From positions 5,390 through 69,389 of the forward strand of contig CAYXVY010000337.1 in assembly GCA_964468745.1 (NCBI GenBank): DNA of 64,000 nucleotides, read 5' to 3'. The DNA comes from an uncultured Planctomycetales bacterium. GTDB taxonomy: Bacteria; Planctomycetota; MHYJ01; JACPRB01. The translations under genes were made by a program, and so were the position numbers. The notes below the pieces were generated by a model. The model did not search any database, had not been told where the DNA came from, and saw only the letters and a program-made list of their open reading frames with translations. Numbering within the stretch: the first letter of the stretch is position 1; each line of letters begins with the position of its first letter. Below are positions 4,016 to 34,963 of this stretch, piece by piece.

Positions 4016-5467
4016 ATGCCCATCCGCCACTGCCAGAAATGCGGCCTGAAGGTTCTCATCGACGAGACCCAGACGACGGCCAATCCGTTCTACTGCCAGC
4101 GCTGCGCCGCCACGGCGAAGGCGCAAGCCGCCGCGCCGGAGGCCAAACGCGCCGACCCGATGCCGATGGTGTCGAAGCGCGACCCCGCGTCGGCGCCGGG
4201 CAGCGCTCCCGTGACCGGGGGGGGCAAGGGCGGACCGGTGAAGGTCCTCTGCCCGTACTGCAAGGCGTCGTTCTCCGGCCGACTCCCGGCGAAGCCGGCC
4301 AAAGGCGCATGCCCGGTCTGCCAAAAGGAACTTGTCCTGCTGCCGGACGGCAAAATCAAGCCGGCGGCCACGTTCGATCTCGCAAAGTGGCAGAAGGAAC
4401 AGGAGCTCGCGAAGTACGGGGGGGACCCCGGCGTTGCCGAGCAGGCGCGCGCCGTTCAGAAGGCGCTGGAGCGGTCGAACCGCGATTTGGAGATCCCGCC
4501 GCCGGAGTCGGAGGGGATCGATCCCGAGGCGACCGCGACCTCGGACGACGGGGGGAGCTACTCGAACGAAAACGAAGCCACGCTCATCACGCCGCGCGCC
4601 TCGGCGGCGGATCCGCTGAGCGGACTTGGCGGCGAGACGATGCTCGACATGGGCCGGCCGATCGACACGGGTGACAACGCCGGTCGCCGCGCCGCACAGG
4701 AAGAGCGCGATCCGCTAGCGGTCCTCGGCGACGATGCACCGCTGGAGGGCGACCCCAACGCCGCGACAATCGTGGACGATCCGCCGCCGGTTCCCCAGGA
4801 GGCCGAGGCGATCGAACAGGAAGTTCCGACGATCAAGCAGGTTCCGGAGTCCGCGCCGGCGCTCAGCCGCCGTCCGGCCCCCGCGGCCTCCCGCTCGCCG
4901 CTGCCGCCGGTGACCGCTCCCGCCGCCGAGCCGGAGGCGAGGACGCCCGCGACGCCCGGCTCGCTGCGCTCGGGTCCGAGCGGCGCGAAGGTCGTGTTCG
5001 CGGCGCTGCTCCTCATCATTCCGGTGGCGCTCGGAGGCGTCGGGATTTTCGTGAAGAACAACGCCGAGCTGAACAAGCTGCTCGGCAAGCTGGGGCCGAT
5101 CGGATCGCAGGGCTTCCGCAAGCTGCGGGAGAAGGTCGACGCCGCAATGACGCCGCCGCCGAAGCCCGCGCCGCCCCCCAAGCCCGTAGCGCCCCCGACG
5201 ACCGCGACGGAAGCGCCGCCGCCCGTCCCCAAGCTGAGCGACGCAGACTTCAAGCGGCAGACTGAGCCGATCATCACCGACATGTGGACGACGATGCGCT
5301 TCGCGCAGCTCGAGATCAAGAAGCTGCAGCGCGACCCGACGGGGTCGCACGGCAAGGCGATCGAGTTCCAGCAGCAGAAGCACGACAGCGCGAAGAAGCG
5401 CTACGACGAGCTGCAGGCGGAGTACAAGGAGCGCTTCGGGGCGGAGTTCAAGGCGGCGGACCAGTAG
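4016..5467 (+). CDS. Zn-ribbon, low-complexity, single-TM membrane protein
   Basis: CQKC/CQRC and CPYC/CPVC pairs, Pro/Ala/acidic linker, TM VVFAALLLIIPVALGGVGIFV, C-terminal coiled coil. Confidence 0.8.
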   Translation: MPIRHCQKCGLKVLIDETQTTANPFYCQRCAATAKAQAAAPEAKRADPMPMVSKRDPASAPGSAPVTGGGKGGPVKVLCPYCKASFSGRLPAKPAKGACPVCQKELVLLPDGKIKPAATFDLAKWQKEQELAKYGGDPGVAEQARAVQKALERSNRDLEIPPPESEGIDPEATATSDDGGSYSNENEATLITPRASAADPLSGLGGETMLDMGRPIDTGDNAGRRAAQEERDPLAVLGDDAPLEGDPNAATIVDDPPPVPQEAEAIEQEVPTIKQVPESAPALSRRPAPAASRSPLPPVTAPAAEPEARTPATPGSLRSGPSGAKVVFAALLLIIPVALGGVGIFVKNNAELNKLLGKLGPIGSQGFRKLREKVDAAMTPPPKPAPPPKPVAPPTTATEAPPPVPKLSDADFKRQTEPIITDMWTTMRFAQLEIKKLQRDPTGSHGKAIEFQQQKHDSAKKRYDELQAEYKERFGAEFKAADQ

Positions 5468-5479
5468 GCCCCGGTTCTA

Positions 5480-5867
5480 AACGCCGAGAGCGCGGAGTTT
5501 GAGGAGAGGTCGCAGGCTATCCCTTGTGGGCGTTCCTCGTGCGTTCCGCATCGGACCCGGCGATCCCATCGCTTCCAGTATCCGGGTGTTTTCGAGGAGA
5601 CACGCGGAGTCTGAATCTCTCCCCCCGATTCAATCGGACGCAACACCGAGCAACCCGAGGCAGCCGAGCGCCCTTGAAGGGGATCGCTCCTCGGTTGCTT
5701 CGGATAACTCGGTGTTGATCCGCTCTCAGGGCGCGGTCGATCGCTCCTGCACGAATTGCGCGACATGTCATAACGCCGGGGGCGCAGATGAGCGTCGGCG
5801 AGCGCGCAGATGCCCCTCTATCGGAATCCTGCGTTCTCTCCGCGTTCAAGTTTGCGGCCTCGGCGTT
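5480..5867 (+). ncRNA. Putative large structured non-coding RNA (unclassified)
   Basis: Nested pairings 5480-5488/5859-5867, 5489-5497/5838-5846 and 5511-5516/5828-5833; central rod 5641-5717; several internal hairpins. G-U pairs favour the + strand. No credible ORF. Confidence 0.5.
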
Positions 5868-5872
5868 ATCCG

Positions 5873-6379
5873 TTACCGCGTGGCATGCATGACCGCTTTG
5901 ATTACTTCGTGCGGCGACGACGCTTCCATAATTTCCGCGCGCGTCGCGTCGTGCGTGAGCATCTCGCCGATCTCCCTGTAGACCTCGAGGTAGAGCTTGT
6001 CCCCGTAGGGAGGGGCGACGACGCCGAAAAAGACGTGGACCAGCGCCCCGTCGGGCGCGTCGAAGTCGATGCCCGCGGTCGATCGCGCAATGCAGATCGT
6101 GAACTCGCGCGCCTGCATCGTACGTACATGCGGGATTGCGACCCCCTGGCCGACGGCGGTGGAGGACTTCTTCTCGCGATTGATGAGATCGGTCCGGAGC
6201 TTCGTGGCGTTTGCGACCTTCTTCGACGCGACGAATAGTTCGATCAGCTCGTCGAGTACCCGCTCCTTCACATGCCAGACGAGGCGATCGTGCGACCACT
6301 CCTCTGGCACGGGGACGGGGGGCGCGGCGTCGAGCTCGAGCTTGATCTGGGCGGGCTTGAGGTAGCGCGTGAGCTGCAT
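5873..6379 (-). CDS. PTS IIA (EIIA-Ntr/fructose-type) protein
   Basis: REK..ST..G.GVAIPHVR phospho-His motif; GIDFDAPDG..VH.FF. Confidence 0.9.
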   Translation of the reverse strand: MQLTRYLKPAQIKLELDAAPPVPVPEEWSHDRLVWHVKERVLDELIELFVASKKVANATKLRTDLINREKKSSTAVGQGVAIPHVRTMQAREFTICIARSTAGIDFDAPDGALVHVFFGVVAPPYGDKLYLEVYREIGEMLTHDATRAEIMEASSPHEVIKAVMHATR

Positions 6380-7017
6380 CAGGCACGCTCGCCTTCCGCG
6401 ATGGCGACGCCGGCGCTGGTGCCGATGCGCGTCGCGCCAGCCGCGACCATGCGCCGCGCGGTTGCGATGTCTCGTATCCCACCGGACGCTTTCACGCCCA
6501 TCGAGTGCGGGACGCTGCGGCGAAGGAGCGCCACGTCCGCTTCGGTGGCGCCGCCGGGCCCGTAGCCGGTGGATGTCTTGACGAAGTGCGCGCCGGCGCG
6601 ATGCGCGAGGGTACAGCCGAGGATCTTCAGGTCGTCGCTGAGTGCCGCGGTTTCGAGGATGACTTTGACGATGCCGTCTCCGGCCGCGCGGACGACGGCT
6701 TCGATCTCGTGCGCCACGGCGGCTTCGTCGTGTGCGGCCAGGGCGGCCGGCGAGAGGACCATGTCAAATTCGATGGCGCCGGCATCGCGCGCCATCCGCG
6801 TTTCGAGTGCTTTCACGTCCGGCAGTGTAGTACCGAACGGGAAGGCGATCACGCTGCCGACGCGCACGCCGCGGTCCGCGCATGTGCGGACCCAGACGGG
6901 ATTCACGCAGACGGTGGCGAAGCGATGGCGGAGCGCCTCGTCGCAGAGTGTTTCGATTTCCGCGCGCGTCGCGTCGGGGCGGAGGAGCGTGTGATCGATG
7001 ATGGACGCGAGCGACAT
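6379..7017 (-). CDS. deoC: Deoxyribose-phosphate aldolase
   Basis: IDHTLL, FVKTSTG, VKASGGIR, RIGTS motifs; 1-nt overlap with the PTS IIA gene. Confidence 0.96.
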   Translation of the reverse strand: MSLASIIDHTLLRPDATRAEIETLCDEALRHRFATVCVNPVWVRTCADRGVRVGSVIAFPFGTTLPDVKALETRMARDAGAIEFDMVLSPAALAAHDEAAVAHEIEAVVRAAGDGIVKVILETAALSDDLKILGCTLAHRAGAHFVKTSTGYGPGGATEADVALLRRSVPHSMGVKASGGIRDIATARRMVAAGATRIGTSAGVAIAEGERA

Positions 7018-7030
7018 CCGCCCCCGGACT

Positions 7031-7345
7031 CTACCAACGTTTGTATTTCTGAAGTTCCATGCGGACGCGGCTGATCGACTCGGCCCAGCGTTCTTCGAAG
7101 AGGGGCTTGTCGACCTGTTCGGGCATCGCGACAGGCTGGATGGGCGGCTGCCCGGGCTGGGAGGTGGGCGGAGGGGGCTTGGTCGTCGCCGCTTCCATGT
7201 CGGCGAGCGCGGCGTCCACGTCGTTGCCGGGGCGCTGCGTCGAGTCGGGCGGAGGATTCGCAGGCTCGTCGCTGGAGCGGGTGCCGCTGGAACCGCCGCA
7301 GCCGGCCACGAGGACCGCGGACGCCAAGGCGATCAGGACTCTCAT
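7031..7345 (-). CDS. Small lipoprotein
   Basis: MRVLIALASAVLVAG-C lipobox, Pro-rich linker. Confidence 0.7.
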   Translation of the reverse strand: MRVLIALASAVLVAGCGGSSGTRSSDEPANPPPDSTQRPGNDVDAALADMEAATTKPPPPTSQPGQPPIQPVAMPEQVDKPLFEERWAESISRVRMELQKYKRW

Positions 7346-7454
7346 GCGAACCTCCGGATGAGATGGACGGATTGACTCTATCCCAAGCCCTCGCGATTTC
7401 GTACAAAAATATGGCGGACGGGTCTAAGATACCCCGCGCAATCCTTCTCTGGAG

Positions 7455-9083
7455 GTGCCCATGCGGCCGTTTCTCGCCATCGCGCTCGTACTTGCGGCGT
7501 TCGCGCCCGGATGCGACATAAAAAAGGGGCCTCCCGGCCGGCCGCCGGTCGTCCCGATGCTTGCCATCCAGGAAGAAGTGCTCCAGGACCGCGTCGCCCA
7601 CGCGAAGCAGCTGCTTGCAGACGCGGGCTACGCCGGAGGGAAGGGCTTCCCGAAGCTCGAGATCCTCTACAACACGGACGAGGGGCACAAGAAGATTGCC
7701 GCCGTCGTCCAGCAGATGTGGCGCAAGAATCTCGGCATCGACGTCGAGCTGCGCAACACCGAGTGGAAGGTGTATCTCGACGACCTGTCGAAGCTGCGCT
7801 ACCAGATCGCGCGCCGCGGGTGGATCGGCGACTACCGAGATCCGAACACGTTCATCGACATGTTCACGTCGCTCAGCGGAAACAACAACACGGGATGGAA
7901 GAACGCACAGTTCGACCAGCTCGTGAAGGACGCGTTCCGCGAGGCGGACAAGGTGAAGCGGCTGGCGATCCTGCGCGACGCCGAGAAGATCCTGATGACC
8001 GAGCTGCCGATCATGCCCATCTACTTCTACGTCTCGTCGAACTGCTGGACCGACAAGGTGAAGGGCGTGTACGCGAACATCCAGGACGTGCATCCGTTGA
8101 ACGAGGCGTACGTCGAGGGGAAGGACACGCTGATCATCAACAACGCCACCGAGATCCAGACGCTCGACGCCGGCCTGGCGCGCGGCGTTCCGGAGGATCG
8201 AATCATCAGCACAATGTTCGAGGGTTTGACGATTCGCGATCCGAAGACGCTCGACCCGAAGCCCGGGATCGCGCAGAGCTGGGAGGTTTCGGCCGATGGG
8301 CGCACCTACACGTTCCACCTGCGCGAGGCGCAGTGGAGCGACGGCAAGCCCGTGACGGCGGGCGATTTCGAGTACGCGTGGAAGCGCGTGCTCGATCCGG
8401 CCACGCCGACCGACTACGCGAGCCAGCTCTACTACGTCAAGGGCGCGGAGGATTACAACACCAAGAAGACGCCCGACGCTTCGAAGGTGGGGGTGCGCGC
8501 GCAGGACGATCGCACGCTGGTCGTCGAGCTCGAGAATCCGTGCGCGTACTGGCTCGATCTCTGCGCGTTCTTCACGCTCTATCCGGTGCGCAAGGATGTG
8601 ATCGACAAGCACGGCACGAACTGGACGCGCGCGGAGAACATCGTCGTCAACGGCCCCTTCAAGCTGAAGGAGCACAAGCCGAACGACTCGCTGACCGTCG
8701 AGAAGAATCCGAAGTACTACAACGCGGGCGTCGTGAAGCAGCCGATGGTCACGTTCCTGCCGATCGAGAACCGGCTGACGGCGTGGGGCCTGTACAGGGA
8801 CGGCAAGTGCGACTGGGTGACGTCGCTGCCTCTGGAGCAGATCGAGGAGATCATCAAGCGGCCGGATTATCGCGGCGACACGTATCTCGGCACGTACTTC
8901 TACTCGTTCAACGTGGAGCACGAGGCGCTGAAGGACAAGCGGGTGCGCAAGGCGCTCACGCTGGCGATCGACCGCGAAATCATCGTGAACAAGATCACCA
9001 AGCAGGGACAGAAGCCCGCGTACTGGTACGTGCCGCCGATCTGGGAGACGTTCAAGAGCCCGCGGTTCGACGTCAAGGATTGA
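7455..9083 (+). CDS. oppA: Oligopeptide ABC substrate-binding lipoprotein (family 5), circularly permuted
   Basis: Lipobox APG-C. OppA C-terminal lobe first (AKQLLADAGY..LYNT..HKKIA..RRGWIGDY), then the N-terminal part (EIQTLD..FEGL..WSDG.PVTA.DF..RVRKAL.LAIDR) from residue ~222. Confidence 0.9.
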   Translation: MPMRPFLAIALVLAAFAPGCDIKKGPPGRPPVVPMLAIQEEVLQDRVAHAKQLLADAGYAGGKGFPKLEILYNTDEGHKKIAAVVQQMWRKNLGIDVELRNTEWKVYLDDLSKLRYQIARRGWIGDYRDPNTFIDMFTSLSGNNNTGWKNAQFDQLVKDAFREADKVKRLAILRDAEKILMTELPIMPIYFYVSSNCWTDKVKGVYANIQDVHPLNEAYVEGKDTLIINNATEIQTLDAGLARGVPEDRIISTMFEGLTIRDPKTLDPKPGIAQSWEVSADGRTYTFHLREAQWSDGKPVTAGDFEYAWKRVLDPATPTDYASQLYYVKGAEDYNTKKTPDASKVGVRAQDDRTLVVELENPCAYWLDLCAFFTLYPVRKDVIDKHGTNWTRAENIVVNGPFKLKEHKPNDSLTVEKNPKYYNAGVVKQPMVTFLPIENRLTAWGLYRDGKCDWVTSLPLEQIEEIIKRPDYRGDTYLGTYFYSFNVEHEALKDKRVRKALTLAIDREIIVNKITKQGQKPAYWYVPPIWETFKSPRFDVKD

Positions 9084-9084
9084 C

Positions 9085-10020
9085 GTGCTGTCGTTCGTCG
9101 TCCGGCGCCTGTTCGGCGGGGTCATCACGCTCTTCGTGATCGCCACGCTCTGCTTCACCATCACGCGGCTTGCGCCGGGGAGCCCGTTCTCCTCGGAGCG
9201 CACGATGCACCCCGAGATCATCAAGAACTTCGAGGTGTTCTACGGCCTCGACAGGCCCATCCTTGTGCAGTACGGACGCACGATGTGGGGCTACCTGAAG
9301 GGCGACTTCGGCCCGTCGATGCACTATCGCGATCGGACGTGCAACGACTACGTGTGGCCGGGATTCAGGACGTCGGTCATCCTCGGCACGCTGGCGGGGC
9401 TGCTGGCGCTCGCCATTGGGCTGCCCCTTGGGCTCGTGGGTGCCGCGTACCAGAATCGCGCGCCGGACTACGCCGCGATGACCTTGTCCGTGATGGGCAT
9501 CTGCGTGCCGAACTTCCTCCTCGGGCCGCTGCTGGTCCTGCTCTTCACGTTCGGGCTCGGCTGGTTGCCGTCGGCACGCTGGCCGGAAGACTGGTCGCTC
9601 TCGGAGCTGCGCAAGCTCATCATGCCTGCGATCACGCTGGTCATGGTGCACGTCGCGTACATCTCACGACTCGGGCGCGCGGGGATGCTCGACGTGATGA
9701 ACAAGGACTACATCCGCACGGCGCGCGCGAAGGGGCTGTCGGAGTGGGTTGTCTTCCTCAAGCACGGGCTCAAGAACGGCGTCACGCCGGTCGTCTCGTA
9801 CGCGGGGCCGATGTGGGCGCTGATCATCACGGGTTCGATCGTCGTCGAGTCGATCTTCGCGCTGCCGGGGCTGGGGACGCACTTCGTGAAGTCCGCCATG
9901 AACCGCGACATGAACCTCATCATGGCGTGCGTGATGGTGTACAGCACGATCGTGATCTGCATGAACTTCCTTGTTGACATCGCGTACGCGTATCTCGATC
10001 CGCGGGTGAGGTTGAGCTGA
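9085..10020 (+). CDS. oppB: Oligopeptide ABC permease
   Basis: DYIRTARAKGLSE EAA loop; GSIVVESIFALPGLG. Confidence 0.95.
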   Translation: MLSFVVRRLFGGVITLFVIATLCFTITRLAPGSPFSSERTMHPEIIKNFEVFYGLDRPILVQYGRTMWGYLKGDFGPSMHYRDRTCNDYVWPGFRTSVILGTLAGLLALAIGLPLGLVGAAYQNRAPDYAAMTLSVMGICVPNFLLGPLLVLLFTFGLGWLPSARWPEDWSLSELRKLIMPAITLVMVHVAYISRLGRAGMLDVMNKDYIRTARAKGLSEWVVFLKHGLKNGVTPVVSYAGPMWALIITGSIVVESIFALPGLGTHFVKSAMNRDMNLIMACVMVYSTIVICMNFLVDIAYAYLDPRVRLS

Positions 10021-10928
10021 TGAGCCCGAGATCCTCTTTCGTGATCGACCCCGACGCCGCGCTGGCCGCGCCCGTCGGCCGCTCTCCGTCCCAGATGGCG
10101 CTGCGGAGGTTCATGAAGAACCGCCGCGCGCTCGTTTGTTTCTTCCTGCTCAGCCTGATCGGCGGGGCGACGCTCCTGGTCCCGTGGGTCACGCCGCACG
10201 ACTACCGCGACCAGGACTGGGACTACACGGGGGGCGAGCCGAACGGCAAGTACTGGATGGGGACGGACACGCTGGGGCGCGATCTGATGTCGCGCGTCTT
10301 CCTCGGCGGGCGGATCTCATTCGCGGTCGGATTCCTCGCGACCGCGGTGAGCGTCGTCATCGGCATCCTCTATGGCTCGCTGAGCGCGTTTCTCGGCGGG
10401 CGCGCGGACAATCTGATGATGCGGTTCGTCGACGTGCTGTACGGGCTGCCGTACATGCTCATCATCATCATCGTCATGGCGTTCCTGAGGACGAAAGACA
10501 TCGTCATCGTGTTCTGCGTGCTGGGCCTGTTCGGCTGGCTGACGATGGCGCGGATCGTGCGCGGGCAGGTGCTCTCGCTGCGCGAGCGCGAGTTCGTCGA
10601 GGCGGCGCGGGCGCTGGGCGCAGGCACATGGCACATCATCTTCAAGCACATGATCCCGAACATCATGGGGCCGGTGATCGTCTACACGACGCTCTCCGTC
10701 CCCGCCATGATCCTCTCGGAGTCGTTCATCTCGTTCCTGGGCCTGGGGATTTCCGAGCCCGAGACATCGTGGGGCATGCTGATCAGCGAGGGGGCGCAGG
10801 CACTCGGCGGCGACAAGAGCTACTGGTGGCTGACGACGTTCCCCGGCGCGTGCCTGGCGATCACGCTGTTCTGTCTCAACTCGATCGGAGACGGCTTGAG
10901 AGACTCCTTTGATGTCCAGCAGCGTTAG
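10020..10928 (+). CDS. oppC: Oligopeptide ABC permease
   Basis: MGTDTLGRD, REFVEAARALGA, ESFISFLGLG motifs. Confidence 0.95.
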   Translation: MSPRSSFVIDPDAALAAPVGRSPSQMALRRFMKNRRALVCFFLLSLIGGATLLVPWVTPHDYRDQDWDYTGGEPNGKYWMGTDTLGRDLMSRVFLGGRISFAVGFLATAVSVVIGILYGSLSAFLGGRADNLMMRFVDVLYGLPYMLIIIIVMAFLRTKDIVIVFCVLGLFGWLTMARIVRGQVLSLREREFVEAARALGAGTWHIIFKHMIPNIMGPVIVYTTLSVPAMILSESFISFLGLGISEPETSWGMLISEGAQALGGDKSYWWLTTFPGACLAITLFCLNSIGDGLRDSFDVQQR

Positions 10929-12492
10929 GTTTGCGCTCGTCCTTCTGCTGCTTGTCGGCTGCGACAAGTCCGGCGCCGGGCTCCCGACGACAAGCGACCC
11001 GAGGATCCTCGAGGCGCGCAAGTTGCTCGCCGACGCGGGATTCCCGGAAGGCAAGGGGTTCCCGAAGCTCGAAGTCCTGCACAACGACGCCGACTGGCAC
11101 AAGAAGATCGCCGCCGCGATCCAGGAGATGTGGCGCAAGCAGCTCGGGATCCAGGTCGAGCTGCGCAGCGAGGAGTGGAAGGTGTTCCTCGCCAATCGCG
11201 GTGCCGGGAAGTTCCAGATCGCGCGCGGCGGATTCACCGGCGAGTATCGCGACCCGCACGCGTTCCTGCGTCTCTTCGCCAGCGACAGCGGATTCAACTC
11301 GACGAAGTGGTCGAGCCCGGAATTCGACCGGCTGCTGCTCGCGGCGAACGACGAGCTCGATCCGGCGAAGCGTTACGCAATGCTGGGGAAAGCGGAGCGG
11401 CTGCTCCTCGACGAGGCGCCGACGTTTCCCGTCTTCCACTATGTAGGCCACAACTGGATGCGTCCGTTCGTAAAGGGGGTGCAGCCGAACTACCGCGACA
11501 TGCATCCGATGCAGCACGTGTGGATGGATGGCGAGGGGACTCCGAAGGACGGCGTCCTCCTCTTCTTCGCCGGCGAGGAGGCCGGGACGCTGGACCCGGG
11601 ACTCTCTCACGACATGCGCGGCCTCAAGACCGCGATGGCGCTCTTCGAGGGACTCGTGCAATACGACCCGAAGGATGCGTCGCCGATGCCCGCTGTTGCC
11701 GAGCGCTGGGAGATTTCTCCCGACGGCCGCACCTACACCTTCCATCTGCGTGACGCGAAGTGGTCGAGCGGCGACGCGGTCACGTCGGAGGATTTCGTCT
11801 GGTCGTGGCGTCGCGTCATCGATCCCGCCACGGCGTCGCAGTACAAGGACCTGATGTACTACGTGAAGAACGGCCGCGCGATCGCGAACAAGGAGAAGCC
11901 GAAGGAGGAGCTCGGCATCCGCGCGCCGGACGCGAAGACGGTCGTCGTCGAGCTGGAGCGTCCGACGCCGTACTTCCTGTCGGTGCTGTGCCTCAACGTC
12001 TTCTTTCCCGTGCATCGAGCGACGGTCGAGAAGCACGGCAAGGACTGGACGCGCGTGGAGAACATCGTCAATAACGGGCCGTTCCGCATTACGGCGTGGA
12101 GGATCAACGACCGGCAGGTGTTCGAGGCGAATCCCGCCTATCGCGCCGCGGGCGACGTGAAGCTGAAGAAGTTCGTGTGGCTCACGGGGAGCAACTTCTC
12201 GACCGCGTGGAACCAGTACATCGCGGGTGAATGTCATTGGACCTATCAGTCGCCGAACGAGCTGCTCGAGGAGGCCGTCAAGCGGCCGGATCACCAGGCG
12301 GCGCCCTACAACGCGAGCTACTTCTACGTGTTCAACGTGACGGTCAAGCCGCTCGACGACGTGCGCGTGCGTCGTGCGCTCTCGCTGGCCGTCGATCGCG
12401 ACGTGATCACGAAGCACGTGGTGAAGGGGGGCGAGACTCCCGCCGATCGCATCACGCCGAAGTCTCTGTATCCCGAGTACGAAGTGAAATGA
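10912..12492 (+). CDS. oppA: Second circularly permuted oligopeptide-binding lipoprotein
   Basis: Lipobox LVG-C, then EARKLLADAGF..RGGFTGEY.. first; EAGTLDP..FEGLV..KWSSG..VRRALSLAVDR after residue ~208. Confidence 0.9.
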   Translation: MSSSVRFALVLLLLVGCDKSGAGLPTTSDPRILEARKLLADAGFPEGKGFPKLEVLHNDADWHKKIAAAIQEMWRKQLGIQVELRSEEWKVFLANRGAGKFQIARGGFTGEYRDPHAFLRLFASDSGFNSTKWSSPEFDRLLLAANDELDPAKRYAMLGKAERLLLDEAPTFPVFHYVGHNWMRPFVKGVQPNYRDMHPMQHVWMDGEGTPKDGVLLFFAGEEAGTLDPGLSHDMRGLKTAMALFEGLVQYDPKDASPMPAVAERWEISPDGRTYTFHLRDAKWSSGDAVTSEDFVWSWRRVIDPATASQYKDLMYYVKNGRAIANKEKPKEELGIRAPDAKTVVVELERPTPYFLSVLCLNVFFPVHRATVEKHGKDWTRVENIVNNGPFRITAWRINDRQVFEANPAYRAAGDVKLKKFVWLTGSNFSTAWNQYIAGECHWTYQSPNELLEEAVKRPDHQAAPYNASYFYVFNVTVKPLDDVRVRRALSLAVDRDVITKHVVKGGETPADRITPKSLYPEYEVK

Positions 12493-33779: not shown

Positions 33780-33890
33780 TGTCTCTATATCGCTGGGATG
33801 AGTCGTTCGAGGGGTGTCCTTCGCGGATCCGCTACCACACGGCCACCGTGAGGAGGTCACACCTTACTGCGCCACCGGAGGCGGAGCGGA

Positions 33891-33919
33891 ATGATAGGGA
33901 AGTCGGGGAGGGGAGTCAA
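33891..33919 (-). promoter_or_regulatory. Sigma70-type promoter for glmU-prs-rplY-pth
   Basis: Minus strand TTGACT-N17-TATCAT. Confidence 0.7.
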
Positions 33920-33945
33920 GCCTCGAGAGGCGACCTGAAACGAAG

Positions 33946-33969
33946 CGGGGCGGCTCGAAGGCCACCCCG
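33946..33969 (-). terminator. Hairpin downstream of the tRNA-like gene
   Basis: CGGGGTGGC-cttcga-GCCGCCCCG followed by cttcgtttc on the minus strand. Confidence 0.5.
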
Positions 33970-34073
33970 ACCCGTAGCTCATTCTCCAATCCTTTTCACT
34001 CGGATTGAAGCCTGTCTCGCGAACTGGCGTCATGCTAGTGTGCGACGATACGTGGGTCAAGGCCGTGAGCAGG

Positions 34074-34146
34074 AGCGCCCGGCGGGACTCGAACCCGCAT
34101 CTACCCGTTCGCGAAACAGGTGCTCTATTCGTTGAGCTACGGGCGC
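34074..34146 (-). tRNA. Atypical tRNA with CGC (Ala) anticodon; identity ambiguous
   Basis: GCGCCCG TA GCTC AACGAATA GAGC A CCTGT TT-CGC-GA ACGGG TAGAT GCGGG TTCGAGT CCCGC CGGGCGC T: complete 73-nt cloverleaf, followed by CCT rather than CCA. Confidence 0.8.
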
Positions 34147-34227
34147 CCTGCCTTTCAAGTGTCGGGGCGGCACAGACGATCCCGTCGAGCATGCGACGTC
34201 ATCGCGCTGCGCGCCCCTGTCGTTTCC

Positions 34228-34650
34228 CTATTCGTCGCGACTGCTGTCCTCCGGGGCCTGCTCCGCTTCCTGTCCTTCTTGTCCGTTCGGCACCGACACC
34301 GGCACTGGCACCTCGATCTTGCGGTCAAGGAACTGGATCCGGTCCGCCGTCACCTCGATCTTCGAGCGATTCTGTCCCTCCTTGTCCGACCAGCGGCTCT
34401 GACGCAGCTGCCCGACGACCATGCACGTGCTTCCCTTCTTGAGGAACTGGCAGGCGATCTCCGCTTGGTGGCGCCACACCGTGATCTCGATGAAGCTCAC
34501 GGTTTTCTTCAAGGTTCCGTCCTGCTGCGGCACCTCTTTGTTCACGGCGAGCGCGAATTTTGCGTACGGCAGCGCGCCGTTCGCGCCGTACTTGAGCTCC
34601 GGGTCGCGCGTCAGGCGCCCCACGAGAATCACGAGACTGTAGTCACGCAT
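34228..34650 (-). CDS. Second SSB paralogue lacking the aromatic C-terminal tail
   Basis: VILVGRLTRDPEL.Y, G.LRQSRW.DK.GQ.RSK..V.A; AGGAGG RBS; ends DSSRDE. Confidence 0.9.
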   Translation of the reverse strand: MRDYSLVILVGRLTRDPELKYGANGALPYAKFALAVNKEVPQQDGTLKKTVSFIEITVWRHQAEIACQFLKKGSTCMVVGQLRQSRWSDKEGQNRSKIEVTADRIQFLDRKIEVPVPVSVPNGQEGQEAEQAPEDSSRDE

Positions 34651-34963
34651 GGCCGCGCCTCCTTTTGCACACGTCGTCACCGCTCTTCGCGCGTCTCATC
34701 GCCGCGCACACAACGGGTTCCCTGCAAGCGGCATGCCACGAGGCCATGCGCAAGGCGCTGCGCGGCAACAGCCAAGCGCGTGTCGCGATAGGGCACAGAT
34801 GAAAGTGTTTCCGGGGGAAACGCGGCGTTTCCGGGAGAAACGCGGTCGCGCTCGAGCCCTCGCGCGTCGAAAGCACGCGTCGGGATGAGCCGGAGTGCTC
34901 GCCGGCGACCGTAAAGGACGAAAAGCGCGCCAAATGTATTTTTTCAGCGCGTCAAGTTTCTCG

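What the first reader, a model, noticed from the sequence alone, without database searches (positions are those of the whole stretch)
34074..34146. tRNA with an Ala anticodon but no alanine identity
Seen: intact cloverleaf with anticodon CGC, acceptor G1-C72, C2-G71, G3-C70, discriminator U73, D-loop AACGAAUA (no GG; A at 19, A20 present) and no encoded CCA. Known: AlaRS needs G3:U70 and A73. G1-C72/C2-G71/G3-C70/U73 is the Gly acceptor set, A20 is an Arg determinant, and staphylococcal non-proteinogenic tRNA-Gly lack the D-loop GG. Inference: a decaying or mobile-element tRNA, a mis-sense tRNA that would insert non-Ala at GCG, or a non-ribosomal aminoacyl donor. It has its own downstream hairpin and lies beside a second ssb.
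Basis: partly seen in the sequence, partly recalled or inferred. Interest (0 to 1): 0.55.

Follow-up and report, generated by a model that had tools for sequence, protein, structure and literature searches.

The report
Mismatched tRNA with own antisense RNA
This odd transfer RNA gene is real and is half of a two-RNA unit: a tRNA that should put the wrong amino acid (probably arginine) at alanine codons, switched on with the DNA-repair genes, and a small RNA made next to it that base-pairs with it and probably keeps it silent.

Summary
The tRNA is as described and is not a read error. It is not a lone mutant. Behind it lie a sigma-70 promoter (34060-34032) and an ~89-nt small RNA whose 5' end is complementary to the tRNA's anticodon arm and 5' half. 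The tRNA itself is transcribed behind ssb2 from a sigma-54 promoter with a GTTWC-N5-GWAAC site. That promoter type also precedes recA, a HEPN toxin gene and eight leucine-bodied copies of the same module in this planctomycete genome. Orthologues carry other anticodons (GCC, GAC) with a compensating small RNA; each small RNA pairs best with its own tRNA (14 of 15). The arginine-bodied family (33 clusters, several phyla) always has C36, so it reads GNN codons. The glycine-donor idea is not supported. Best reading: a damage-induced missense tRNA held off by a constitutive antisense RNA, working like an RNA-RNA toxin-antitoxin pair (0.45). The architecture is shown by sequence; charging, toxicity and induction are inferred. 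This scan has met tRNA-plus-antisense cassettes on other DNA, and one later check priced the toxin reading at 15/100. I found none in papers. The damage-regulon wiring was not in those notes.

The parts
34827..34841 (-). Upstream palindrome 1 (GTTWC-N5-GWAAC type), putative activator site
   Evidence: PWM scan; same motif upstream of recA in 12 of 16 family genomes and of ssb2 in 12 of 15. Role inferred.
34807..34821 (-). Upstream palindrome 2
34723..34739 (-). sigma-54 (-24/-12) promoter for ssb2 and the tRNA; predicted +1 near 34712
   Evidence: consensus match, conserved before ssb2 in 10 of 15 orthologues
34228..34650 (-). ssb2, second single-strand binding protein gene, first gene of the sigma-54 unit
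   Evidence: Pfam SSB, E 3e-29
34147..34227 (-). Structured leader between ssb2 and the tRNA
   Evidence: fold z = -2.6; not conserved in sequence; role unknown
34074..34146 (-). Arginine-bodied tRNA with alanine anticodon CGC (34113-34111), A20, C36-G37-A38-A39, U73, no CCA
34032..34060 (-). sigma-70 promoter of the small RNA, TTGACC-17-TAGCAT
   Evidence: one of only two hits in 1.1 kb, 0.1 expected; same position in 20 of 22 modules
33937..34025 (-). Predicted antisense small RNA, about 89 nt; first 11 nt single-stranded
   Evidence: start site predicted, not mapped
34011..34024 (-). Segment complementary to tRNA positions 27-40 (13 Watson-Crick pairs + 1 G.U), covering the anticodon
33971..33981 (-). 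Segment complementary to tRNA positions 4-14 (acceptor 5' strand and D-stem)
   Evidence: same segment in G012 and L102
33937..33969 (-). Intrinsic-terminator-like hairpin and T-rich tail shared by both transcripts
33891..33919 (-). sigma-70 promoter of glmU-prs-rplY; boundary, not part of the module
   Evidence: present in relatives that lack the module

Best explanation
A two-RNA cassette that works like a toxin-antitoxin pair made only of RNA. Shown by sequence: an identity-mismatched tRNA under a sigma-54 promoter shared with recA and ssb2, and a small RNA under its own sigma-70 promoter that is complementary to that tRNA's anticodon arm and 5' half. Inferred: (1) the small RNA is made all the time, docks on the anticodon loop with its unpaired 5' end and unzips the anticodon, D and acceptor stems; (2) DNA damage or single-stranded DNA turns on the sigma-54 unit, so tRNA exceeds small RNA; (3) free tRNA gets CCA added and is charged by ArgRS through A20 and C36-G37 (GlyRS is the second candidate for this copy); (4) it inserts Arg at GCG, the commonest codon of the genome, slowing or arresting growth. 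Unmethylated G37 might add +1 frameshifting. This copy may be weaker than the family norm (A19, no C35). Odds: architecture real about 0.93; small RNA silences the tRNA about 0.65; tRNA harms through mistranslation about 0.4.
For: Complement to own anticodon arm: 13-18 Watson-Crick pairs in the 7 odd tRNAs of the genome versus at most 10 in 69 others. Best sigma-70 site found blind in 150 nt lies 2-10 nt before the complement in 20 of 22 modules (background 8.7% of positions). With starts fixed by the promoter alone, 14 of 15 small RNAs pair best with their own tRNA, 0 of 20000 permutations as good. Non-Watson-Crick positions are G.U 14: A.C 4 (p = 0.015), pointing to RNA pairing. Orthologues behind ssb2 or before glmU have CGC, GCC and GAC with compensating partners. 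Partner found in 14 of 20 family clusters with intact acceptor stems, 0 of 13 with broken ones, 5 of 69 control tRNAs. C36 and A39 invariant in 33 of 33 clusters though not forced by the pattern. A20 is the main ArgRS determinant in E. coli, and m1G37 is what stops yeast ArgRS charging tRNA-Asp, which has C36-G37 (PMC9976931). Same promoter type before recA and a HEPN gene. Two decayed copies kept the small RNA and lost part or all of the tRNA. A relative has an AbrB/MazE + PIN pair at the same site. Natural missense tRNAs arrest E. coli (PMC5389517, PMC10404621).
Against: No expression, charging or toxicity data; the two runs laid were uninformative. About 6 of 20 intact-acceptor clusters have no partner within 350 nt (some near contig ends), one of them (L147) with a fair promoter, and two phage copies stand alone. 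This copy lacks C35 and G19 and encodes no CCA. Val-anticodon members carry ValRS determinants (A35, C36, A73) and could be charged correctly. C36-G37 as an Arg signal is documented for yeast, not bacteria. The activator and the inducing signal are not identified. A later check of a similar claim on other DNA gave the toxin reading 15/100.
Confidence: 0.45

Rival explanations
1. The pair is real and regulated, but the tRNA acts uncharged or outside decoding: as a deacylated tRNA for an abundant codon that triggers the stringent response, or as a decoy for anticodon nucleases such as the HEPN/PIN proteins of the same regulon. The small RNA gates it.
For: No cognate identity for the anticodon; C35 lost; A19; no CCA in 15 of 15 planctomycete copies; HEPN gene in the regulon.
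Against: Leu-bodied copies keep the full Leu set (A73, G18G19, long arm), and LeuRS ignores the anticodon (PMC9976931). Partners accompany only intact acceptor stems. A decoy would not need a private antisense RNA.
Confidence: 0.2
2. A selfish or hitch-hiking cassette with no benefit to the host; this copy is partly decayed and inert, kept quiet by its partner.
For: Patchy: 1 of 401 Planctomycetota genomes by pattern; absent at this site in the same-genus genome and in at least seven other relatives; some family members lie beside IS1/IS1595 transposases; A19 and U73 depart from the family.
Against: All nine copies in this genome sit behind the same host regulon promoter; three orthologues changed anticodon and partner together; every stem of this copy is intact.
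Confidence: 0.18
3. There is no separate small RNA: the complement is a tail of the sigma-54 transcript that folds back in cis and locks the precursor until 3' trimming (hok-like delayed activation).
For: Same strand and shared terminator; the whole transcript folds into the locked form; Leu-bodied copies have a second complement right after N73.
Against: A consensus promoter sits exactly before the complement, and family members have the partner divergent or convergent on the other strand (L047, L050, L051, L098 group), where cis folding is impossible. It may still operate in addition.
Confidence: 0.1
4. One reading: a glycine-charged donor for a non-ribosomal pathway, like staphylococcal tRNA-Gly.
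For: This copy has five of six bacterial Gly determinants (U73, G1-C72, C2-G71, G3-C70, C36; PMC9976931) and lacks D-loop GG.
Against: None of this is conserved in orthologues (A73, G19); T-stem pairs 49-65, 50-64 and 51-63 are ordinary; no aminoacyl-transferase gene among the neighbours scanned; does not explain the antisense RNA.
Confidence: 0.03
5. Codon reassignment, or a stand-in for a missing tRNA-Arg.
For: No complete canonical tRNA-Arg(ACG) in the first list.
Against: GCG aligns with Ala as often as GCC does (64% vs 63%); normal tRNA-Ala(CGC) is present; tRNA-Arg(ACG) is present, cut by the end of contig C92.
Confidence: 0.01

Closest known systems
tRNA-ProX dual-identity tRNAs of Streptomyces and Kitasatospora (PMC10404621; review PMC11415595)
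   Same: Natural tRNA with the body of one amino acid and the anticodon of another, including an Ala anticodon; toxic when expressed.
   Different: Proline body and a dedicated ProRSx gene next door; no antisense partner ('antisense' does not occur in the paper). Here Arg or Leu body, no synthetase beside it, a dedicated small RNA.
Allo-tRNAs (Mukai et al., PMC5389517; review PMC7609411)
   Same: Missense tRNAs of soil bacteria that kill E. coli when induced and often lie near toxin-antitoxin genes.
   Different: 8/4 or 9/3 acceptor branch with long arm and Ser/Ala identity; this one is 7/5 with a short arm. No complementary partner described.
Type VIII toxin-antitoxin systems, CreTA (PMC11610964)
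   Same: Toxin and antidote both RNA, acting on translation.
   Different: CreT sequesters a host tRNA and CreA represses its transcription through Cas proteins; here the presumed toxin is itself a tRNA and the antidote pairs with it directly.
Type I pairs, especially SOS-induced tisB / IstR-1 (own knowledge) and Hok/Sok (PMC11610964)
   Same: Logic: damage-induced toxin transcript, constitutive antisense RNA setting a threshold.
   Different: Toxin is a peptide from an mRNA and control is by LexA; here no toxin ORF and control appears to be sigma-54, with a LexA-type box found only at lexA.
Yeast tRNA-Asp mischarged by ArgRS when G37 is unmethylated (PMC9976931; alternate C36-G37 set from Sissler et al. 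1996, title in that reference list, content from memory)
   Same: C36-G37 in place of C35-G36.
   Different: An error the yeast prevents; here invariant in a bacterial family and combined with A20.

Membership tests
tRNA (structural class) | Cloverleaf, 7-nt anticodon loop, U33, purine 37, T-loop | tested here: met
   (7-nt register pairs in 37-47 of 48 per position; shifted register 16-37)
tRNA-Ala | G3:U70 and A73 | tested here: not met
   G3-C70, U73
tRNA-Arg identity | A20 | tested here: met
   forced by the first pattern, but both C36-G37-A38-A39 hits of the relaxed scan also have it
tRNA-Arg identity | C35 with U/G36 | tested here: not met
   G35-C36-G37; the C-G step lies one base 3' in all 33 clusters
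tRNA-Arg identity | Charged with Arg | not testable with these tools
   needs aminoacylation assay
Non-proteinogenic tRNA-Gly | Gly set including C35, and loss of EF-Tu pairs in the T-stem | tested here: not met
   G35; G49-C65, C50-G64, G51-C63 (PMC9976931)
Allo-tRNA | 8/4 or 9/3 acceptor branch with long variable arm | tested here: not met
   7/5, 5-nt variable loop
tRNA-ProX | Pro identity and adjacent ProRSx | tested here: not met
   neighbours are ssb2 and glmU; no G72/A73
Type I toxin-antitoxin | Toxin is a protein whose mRNA is the antisense target | tested here: not met
   target is the tRNA; no ORF is shared across modules
RNA-RNA (type VIII) toxin-antitoxin | Two adjacent RNA genes with separate promoters | tested here: met
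   by sequence only
RNA-RNA (type VIII) toxin-antitoxin | One RNA is toxic and the other neutralises it | not testable with these tools
   needs expression tests
RNA-RNA (type VIII) toxin-antitoxin | Toxin gene never stands alone | tested here: inconclusive
   all 15 planctomycete copies examined have a partner, but most were found with a model that includes it; about 6 of 20 intact clusters elsewhere lack one
Described RNA families (Rfam 15, incl. Y RNAs) | Match to a curated model other than tRNA | tested here: not met

The most novel reading that the evidence does not exclude
Some bacteria carry sets of deliberately mistranslating tRNAs, each with a private antisense RNA, wired into a sigma-54 DNA-damage regulon. 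In this genome seven such pairs would put Leu or Arg at the commonest Ala, Asp, Gly and Val codons after damage, and the Arg-bodied family would be charged through a one-base-shifted identity signal (C36-G37 with A20).
Probability: 0.3. Interest if true: 0.9.

Novelty: categorically new. Interest (0 to 1): 0.72.

Why it matters
How bacteria control natural mistranslating tRNAs is stated as an open question in the 2024 review (PMC11415595). This locus offers a concrete, testable answer: an inducible promoter for the tRNA and a dedicated antisense RNA. If toxic, it would be a toxin-antitoxin type whose toxin is a tRNA. It would also give a set of orthogonal tRNA/anti-tRNA pairs of about 200 bases, and suggest that tRNA annotators miscall these genes by anticodon. 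The label 'categorically new' refers to the published record I could search; this scan has logged the same kind of cassette on other DNA.

Tried and rejected
Read error: rejected. Codon reassignment and stand-in for tRNA-Arg(ACG): rejected. 8-nt loop register: rejected. Attenuator of downstream genes: rejected, glmU has its own promoter, also in relatives without the module, and one copy faces a convergent gene. Integration-site duplicate or DNA invertible repeat: disfavoured, the copy is inverted, skips the D-loop and shows G.U bias. RtcR/RtcB link: rtcB has no such promoter upstream and no activator could be assigned among about 16 sigma-54 activators. LexA control: box found only at lexA. 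Sequencing runs: two small-share runs, contigs only, no cover of the tRNA; uninformative. Viral scan for the Leu-bodied type: no hit. Terminator pattern across the phylum: not specific. Low-threshold ARAGORN: noise. Ten literature searches found no antisense-paired tRNA; Sissler et al. 1996 could not be opened. PIN-like and IS91-like regulon members were named by eye only; their Pfam scans failed on frame errors.

Full report
Observation. The gene lies on the minus strand at 34146-34074. ARAGORN and Rfam call it a tRNA and it folds as a cloverleaf with z = -3.9. Two Logan assemblies carry the identical region. The host is a 4.7-Mb, 65% G+C bin; a genome of the same family is titled Planctomycetota. 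The genome has a normal tRNA-Ala(CGC) and a tRNA-Arg(ACG) cut by a contig end, and GCG aligns with Ala, so no gap in decoding needs filling.

A second RNA gene follows. Positions 34024-34011 are complementary to tRNA positions 27-40 (13 Watson-Crick pairs and one G.U) and 33981-33971 to positions 4-14, with a hairpin between them and a terminator after. I first read this as a tail of the tRNA transcript. Notes from this scan on other genomes suggested a separate promoter, and I tested that. The scan tool finds only two sigma-70 sites in 1.1 kb (0.1 expected): the glmU promoter and TTGACC-17-TAGCAT, which ends 7 bases before the complement. The predicted 89-nt RNA has 11 unpaired bases at its 5' end, and co-folding with the tRNA gains about 14 kcal/mol while unfolding three stems.

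It is one of nine in this genome. Six other tRNA genes have a leucine body (long arm, A73, Leu-type D-arm), anticodons CGC, CGC, GUC, GCC, CAC and GAC, and no CCA. These six and the flagged gene have 13-18 pairs to their own anticodon arm within 130 nt; the other 69 tRNAs reach at most 10. An RNA model found a 5'-truncated copy and a copy with no tRNA left, both keeping the small RNA, and six more modules in four relatives. In 20 of 22 modules the best sigma-70 site lies 2-10 nt before the complement. With starts set by the promoter alone, 14 of 15 small RNAs pair best with their own tRNA. Mismatches are mostly G.U. Caveat: most Leu-bodied copies were found with a model that includes the partner, so their co-occurrence is not a free test; the promoter position and the pairing specificity are.

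Control of the tRNA. All nine copies lie behind a sigma-54 promoter preceded by a GTTWC-N5-GWAAC palindrome. Only about 16 such promoters exist in the genome; the others precede recA, a HEPN gene and its paralogue, a PC4-like protein and, by eye, a PIN protein and three IS91-like transposases. The palindrome precedes recA in 12 of 16 family genomes and a sigma-54 site does in 11, with none inside the genes. A LexA-type box occurs only at lexA. That this is a DNA-damage regulon is inferred from its members; the activator is unknown.

Same site in relatives. Arg-bodied modules occur before glmU in G012 (GCC) and behind ssb2 in metagenome locus L102 (GAC), each with a compensating small RNA of the same layout. 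G002, G015 and G019 have Leu-bodied modules there; at least eight relatives have none; G004 has an AbrB/MazE + PIN pair instead.

The Arg-bodied family. A pattern with a free anticodon gave 5 genome, 1 viral and 60 metagenome hits, 33 clusters at 88% identity, including named Actinomycetota. All have C36 and A39 (not forced; U33, G37, A38 and A20 were forced); anticodons are NAC, NGC or NCC, never NUC. No NGC member has G3:U70 and no intact NCC member has U73. A partner scoring at least 11.5 of 14 is found for 14 of 20 clusters with intact acceptor stems, 0 of 13 with broken ones and 5 of 69 control tRNAs, none of the controls above 12. Partners may be tandem, divergent or convergent, which argues for a trans-acting RNA. 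In a relaxed viral scan 52 phage tRNAs had no partner above 12, and the only two with G37-A38-A39 also had C36 and A20. The family is sporadic: 1 of 401 Planctomycetota genomes.

Mechanism. Positions 36-39 read as the Arg loop C35-G36-A37-A38 moved one base 3'. A20 is the main determinant of E. coli ArgRS, and yeast ArgRS charges tRNA-Asp (C36-G37) unless G37 is methylated (PMC9976931). From my own knowledge, bacterial TrmD needs G36, so G37 should stay unmodified here. This would explain why the family reads only GNN codons and predicts Arg at Val, Ala or Gly codons; for this copy at GCG, 6.9% of codons and the commonest. This copy also has five of six Gly determinants, so Gly is possible and would be milder. 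For Leu-bodied copies the complement of positions 33-38 often doubles as the -35 box, which may fix C36 there. A CCA-adding-type enzyme is encoded. Natural missense tRNAs arrest E. coli (PMC5389517; PMC10404621). The layout matches tisB/IstR-1 logic (own knowledge). Steps shown: genes, promoter-like sites, complementarity, covariation, shared regulon motif. Steps inferred: transcription, induction, maturation, charging, toxicity, neutralisation.

Against. Nothing here shows expression. About 6 of 20 intact clusters and two phage copies stand alone. Val-anticodon members could be valylated. This copy has lost G19. A later check of the toxin claim for related cassettes on other DNA gave 15/100; I did not repeat that check, and its stated ground (few loops fit to read the code) does not apply to these copies, which keep 7-nt loops, but it lowers my odds.

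Known systems. Closest are tRNA-ProX, allo-tRNAs and type VIII and type I toxin-antitoxin pairs; it fails a defining test for the first two and type I, and the functional test for type VIII cannot be run here. Rfam has no model beyond tRNA and ten searches found no antisense-paired tRNA. This scan has recorded the Arg-bodied and Leu-bodied cassettes before in other genomes; no note mentioned the sigma-54 recA regulon.

Verdict. Observation confirmed; interpretation partly supported; a real two-RNA module of an undescribed kind, most likely a damage-induced missense tRNA with an antisense antidote (0.45). Interest 0.72.

Noticed in passing
window 34723-34841; G000 C310:537; loci L165-L180: A sigma-54 promoter with a GTTWC-N5-GWAAC palindrome precedes recA and ssb2 across this planctomycete family, while a LexA-type box is found only at lexA: an apparently LexA-independent, sigma-54 DNA-damage regulon. 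Not found in one literature search. Activator unknown.
   Followed up: partly
G000 C152, C257, C141, C230, C55, C303 (L037-L042), C186 (L065), C303:17601 (L066): Six Leu-bodied tRNA + antisense modules, one 5'-truncated copy and one tRNA-less remnant; five share a conserved leader hairpin right after the sigma-54 start.
   Followed up: yes
L043 (G000 C256) 4400-11100: Array of about 30 atypical tRNA genes (D-loops often without GG, T-loops with G55), with a Band-7 gene inside and an HNH gene after; resembles the cyanobacterial trn operon (from memory). Its leader has a terminator-like attenuator. Its tRNA-Ala(UGC) has a 10-base complement downstream.
   Followed up: partly
L068-L082, 3' of ssb2: Most family members, but not this genome, have a conserved structured motif after ssb2 (a GCAGAGG core followed by a long hairpin); no Rfam match.
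   Followed up: partly
L073:603-1242 (G004): AbrB/MazE + PIN (VapBC-like) pair inserted between ssb2 and glmU, the site used by the tRNA module elsewhere.
   Followed up: yes
L099, L101, L103, L113, L123, L130, L132, L134, L137, L140, L142, L146, L154; L190, L191: A subgroup of Arg-bodied C36 tRNAs with perfect anticodon and T arms but only 3-5 acceptor pairs, often U73, no antisense partner, several in phage-like DNA. May be a different RNA class or have a bulged acceptor.
   Followed up: no
L098, L100, L105, L107, L115, L116, L121, L128: A stable copy behind a GNAT gene (mshD-like by eye) in low-G+C, probably freshwater actinobacterial contigs, anticodon AAC or GAC, with a convergent antisense gene; the most abundant form in the metagenome scan.
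   Followed up: partly
L126: Two modules in tandem, with small-RNA genes on both sides of the tRNA.
   Followed up: no
G000 C26, C30, C144: Three IS91-like transposase genes (by eye) each carry the regulon promoter, and the C30 copy has an in-frame stop after 79 codons.
   Followed up: no
G000 C60:11905-11978: The housekeeping tRNA-Arg(CCG) has an 11-base complement to its anticodon arm about 32 nt downstream, the best score among normal tRNAs; probably chance.
   Followed up: no
window 33860-34074: tRNA-Gln, which often precedes glmU/prs-rplY in bacteria (own knowledge), is not at this site; both tRNA-Gln genes are on other contigs.
   Followed up: no
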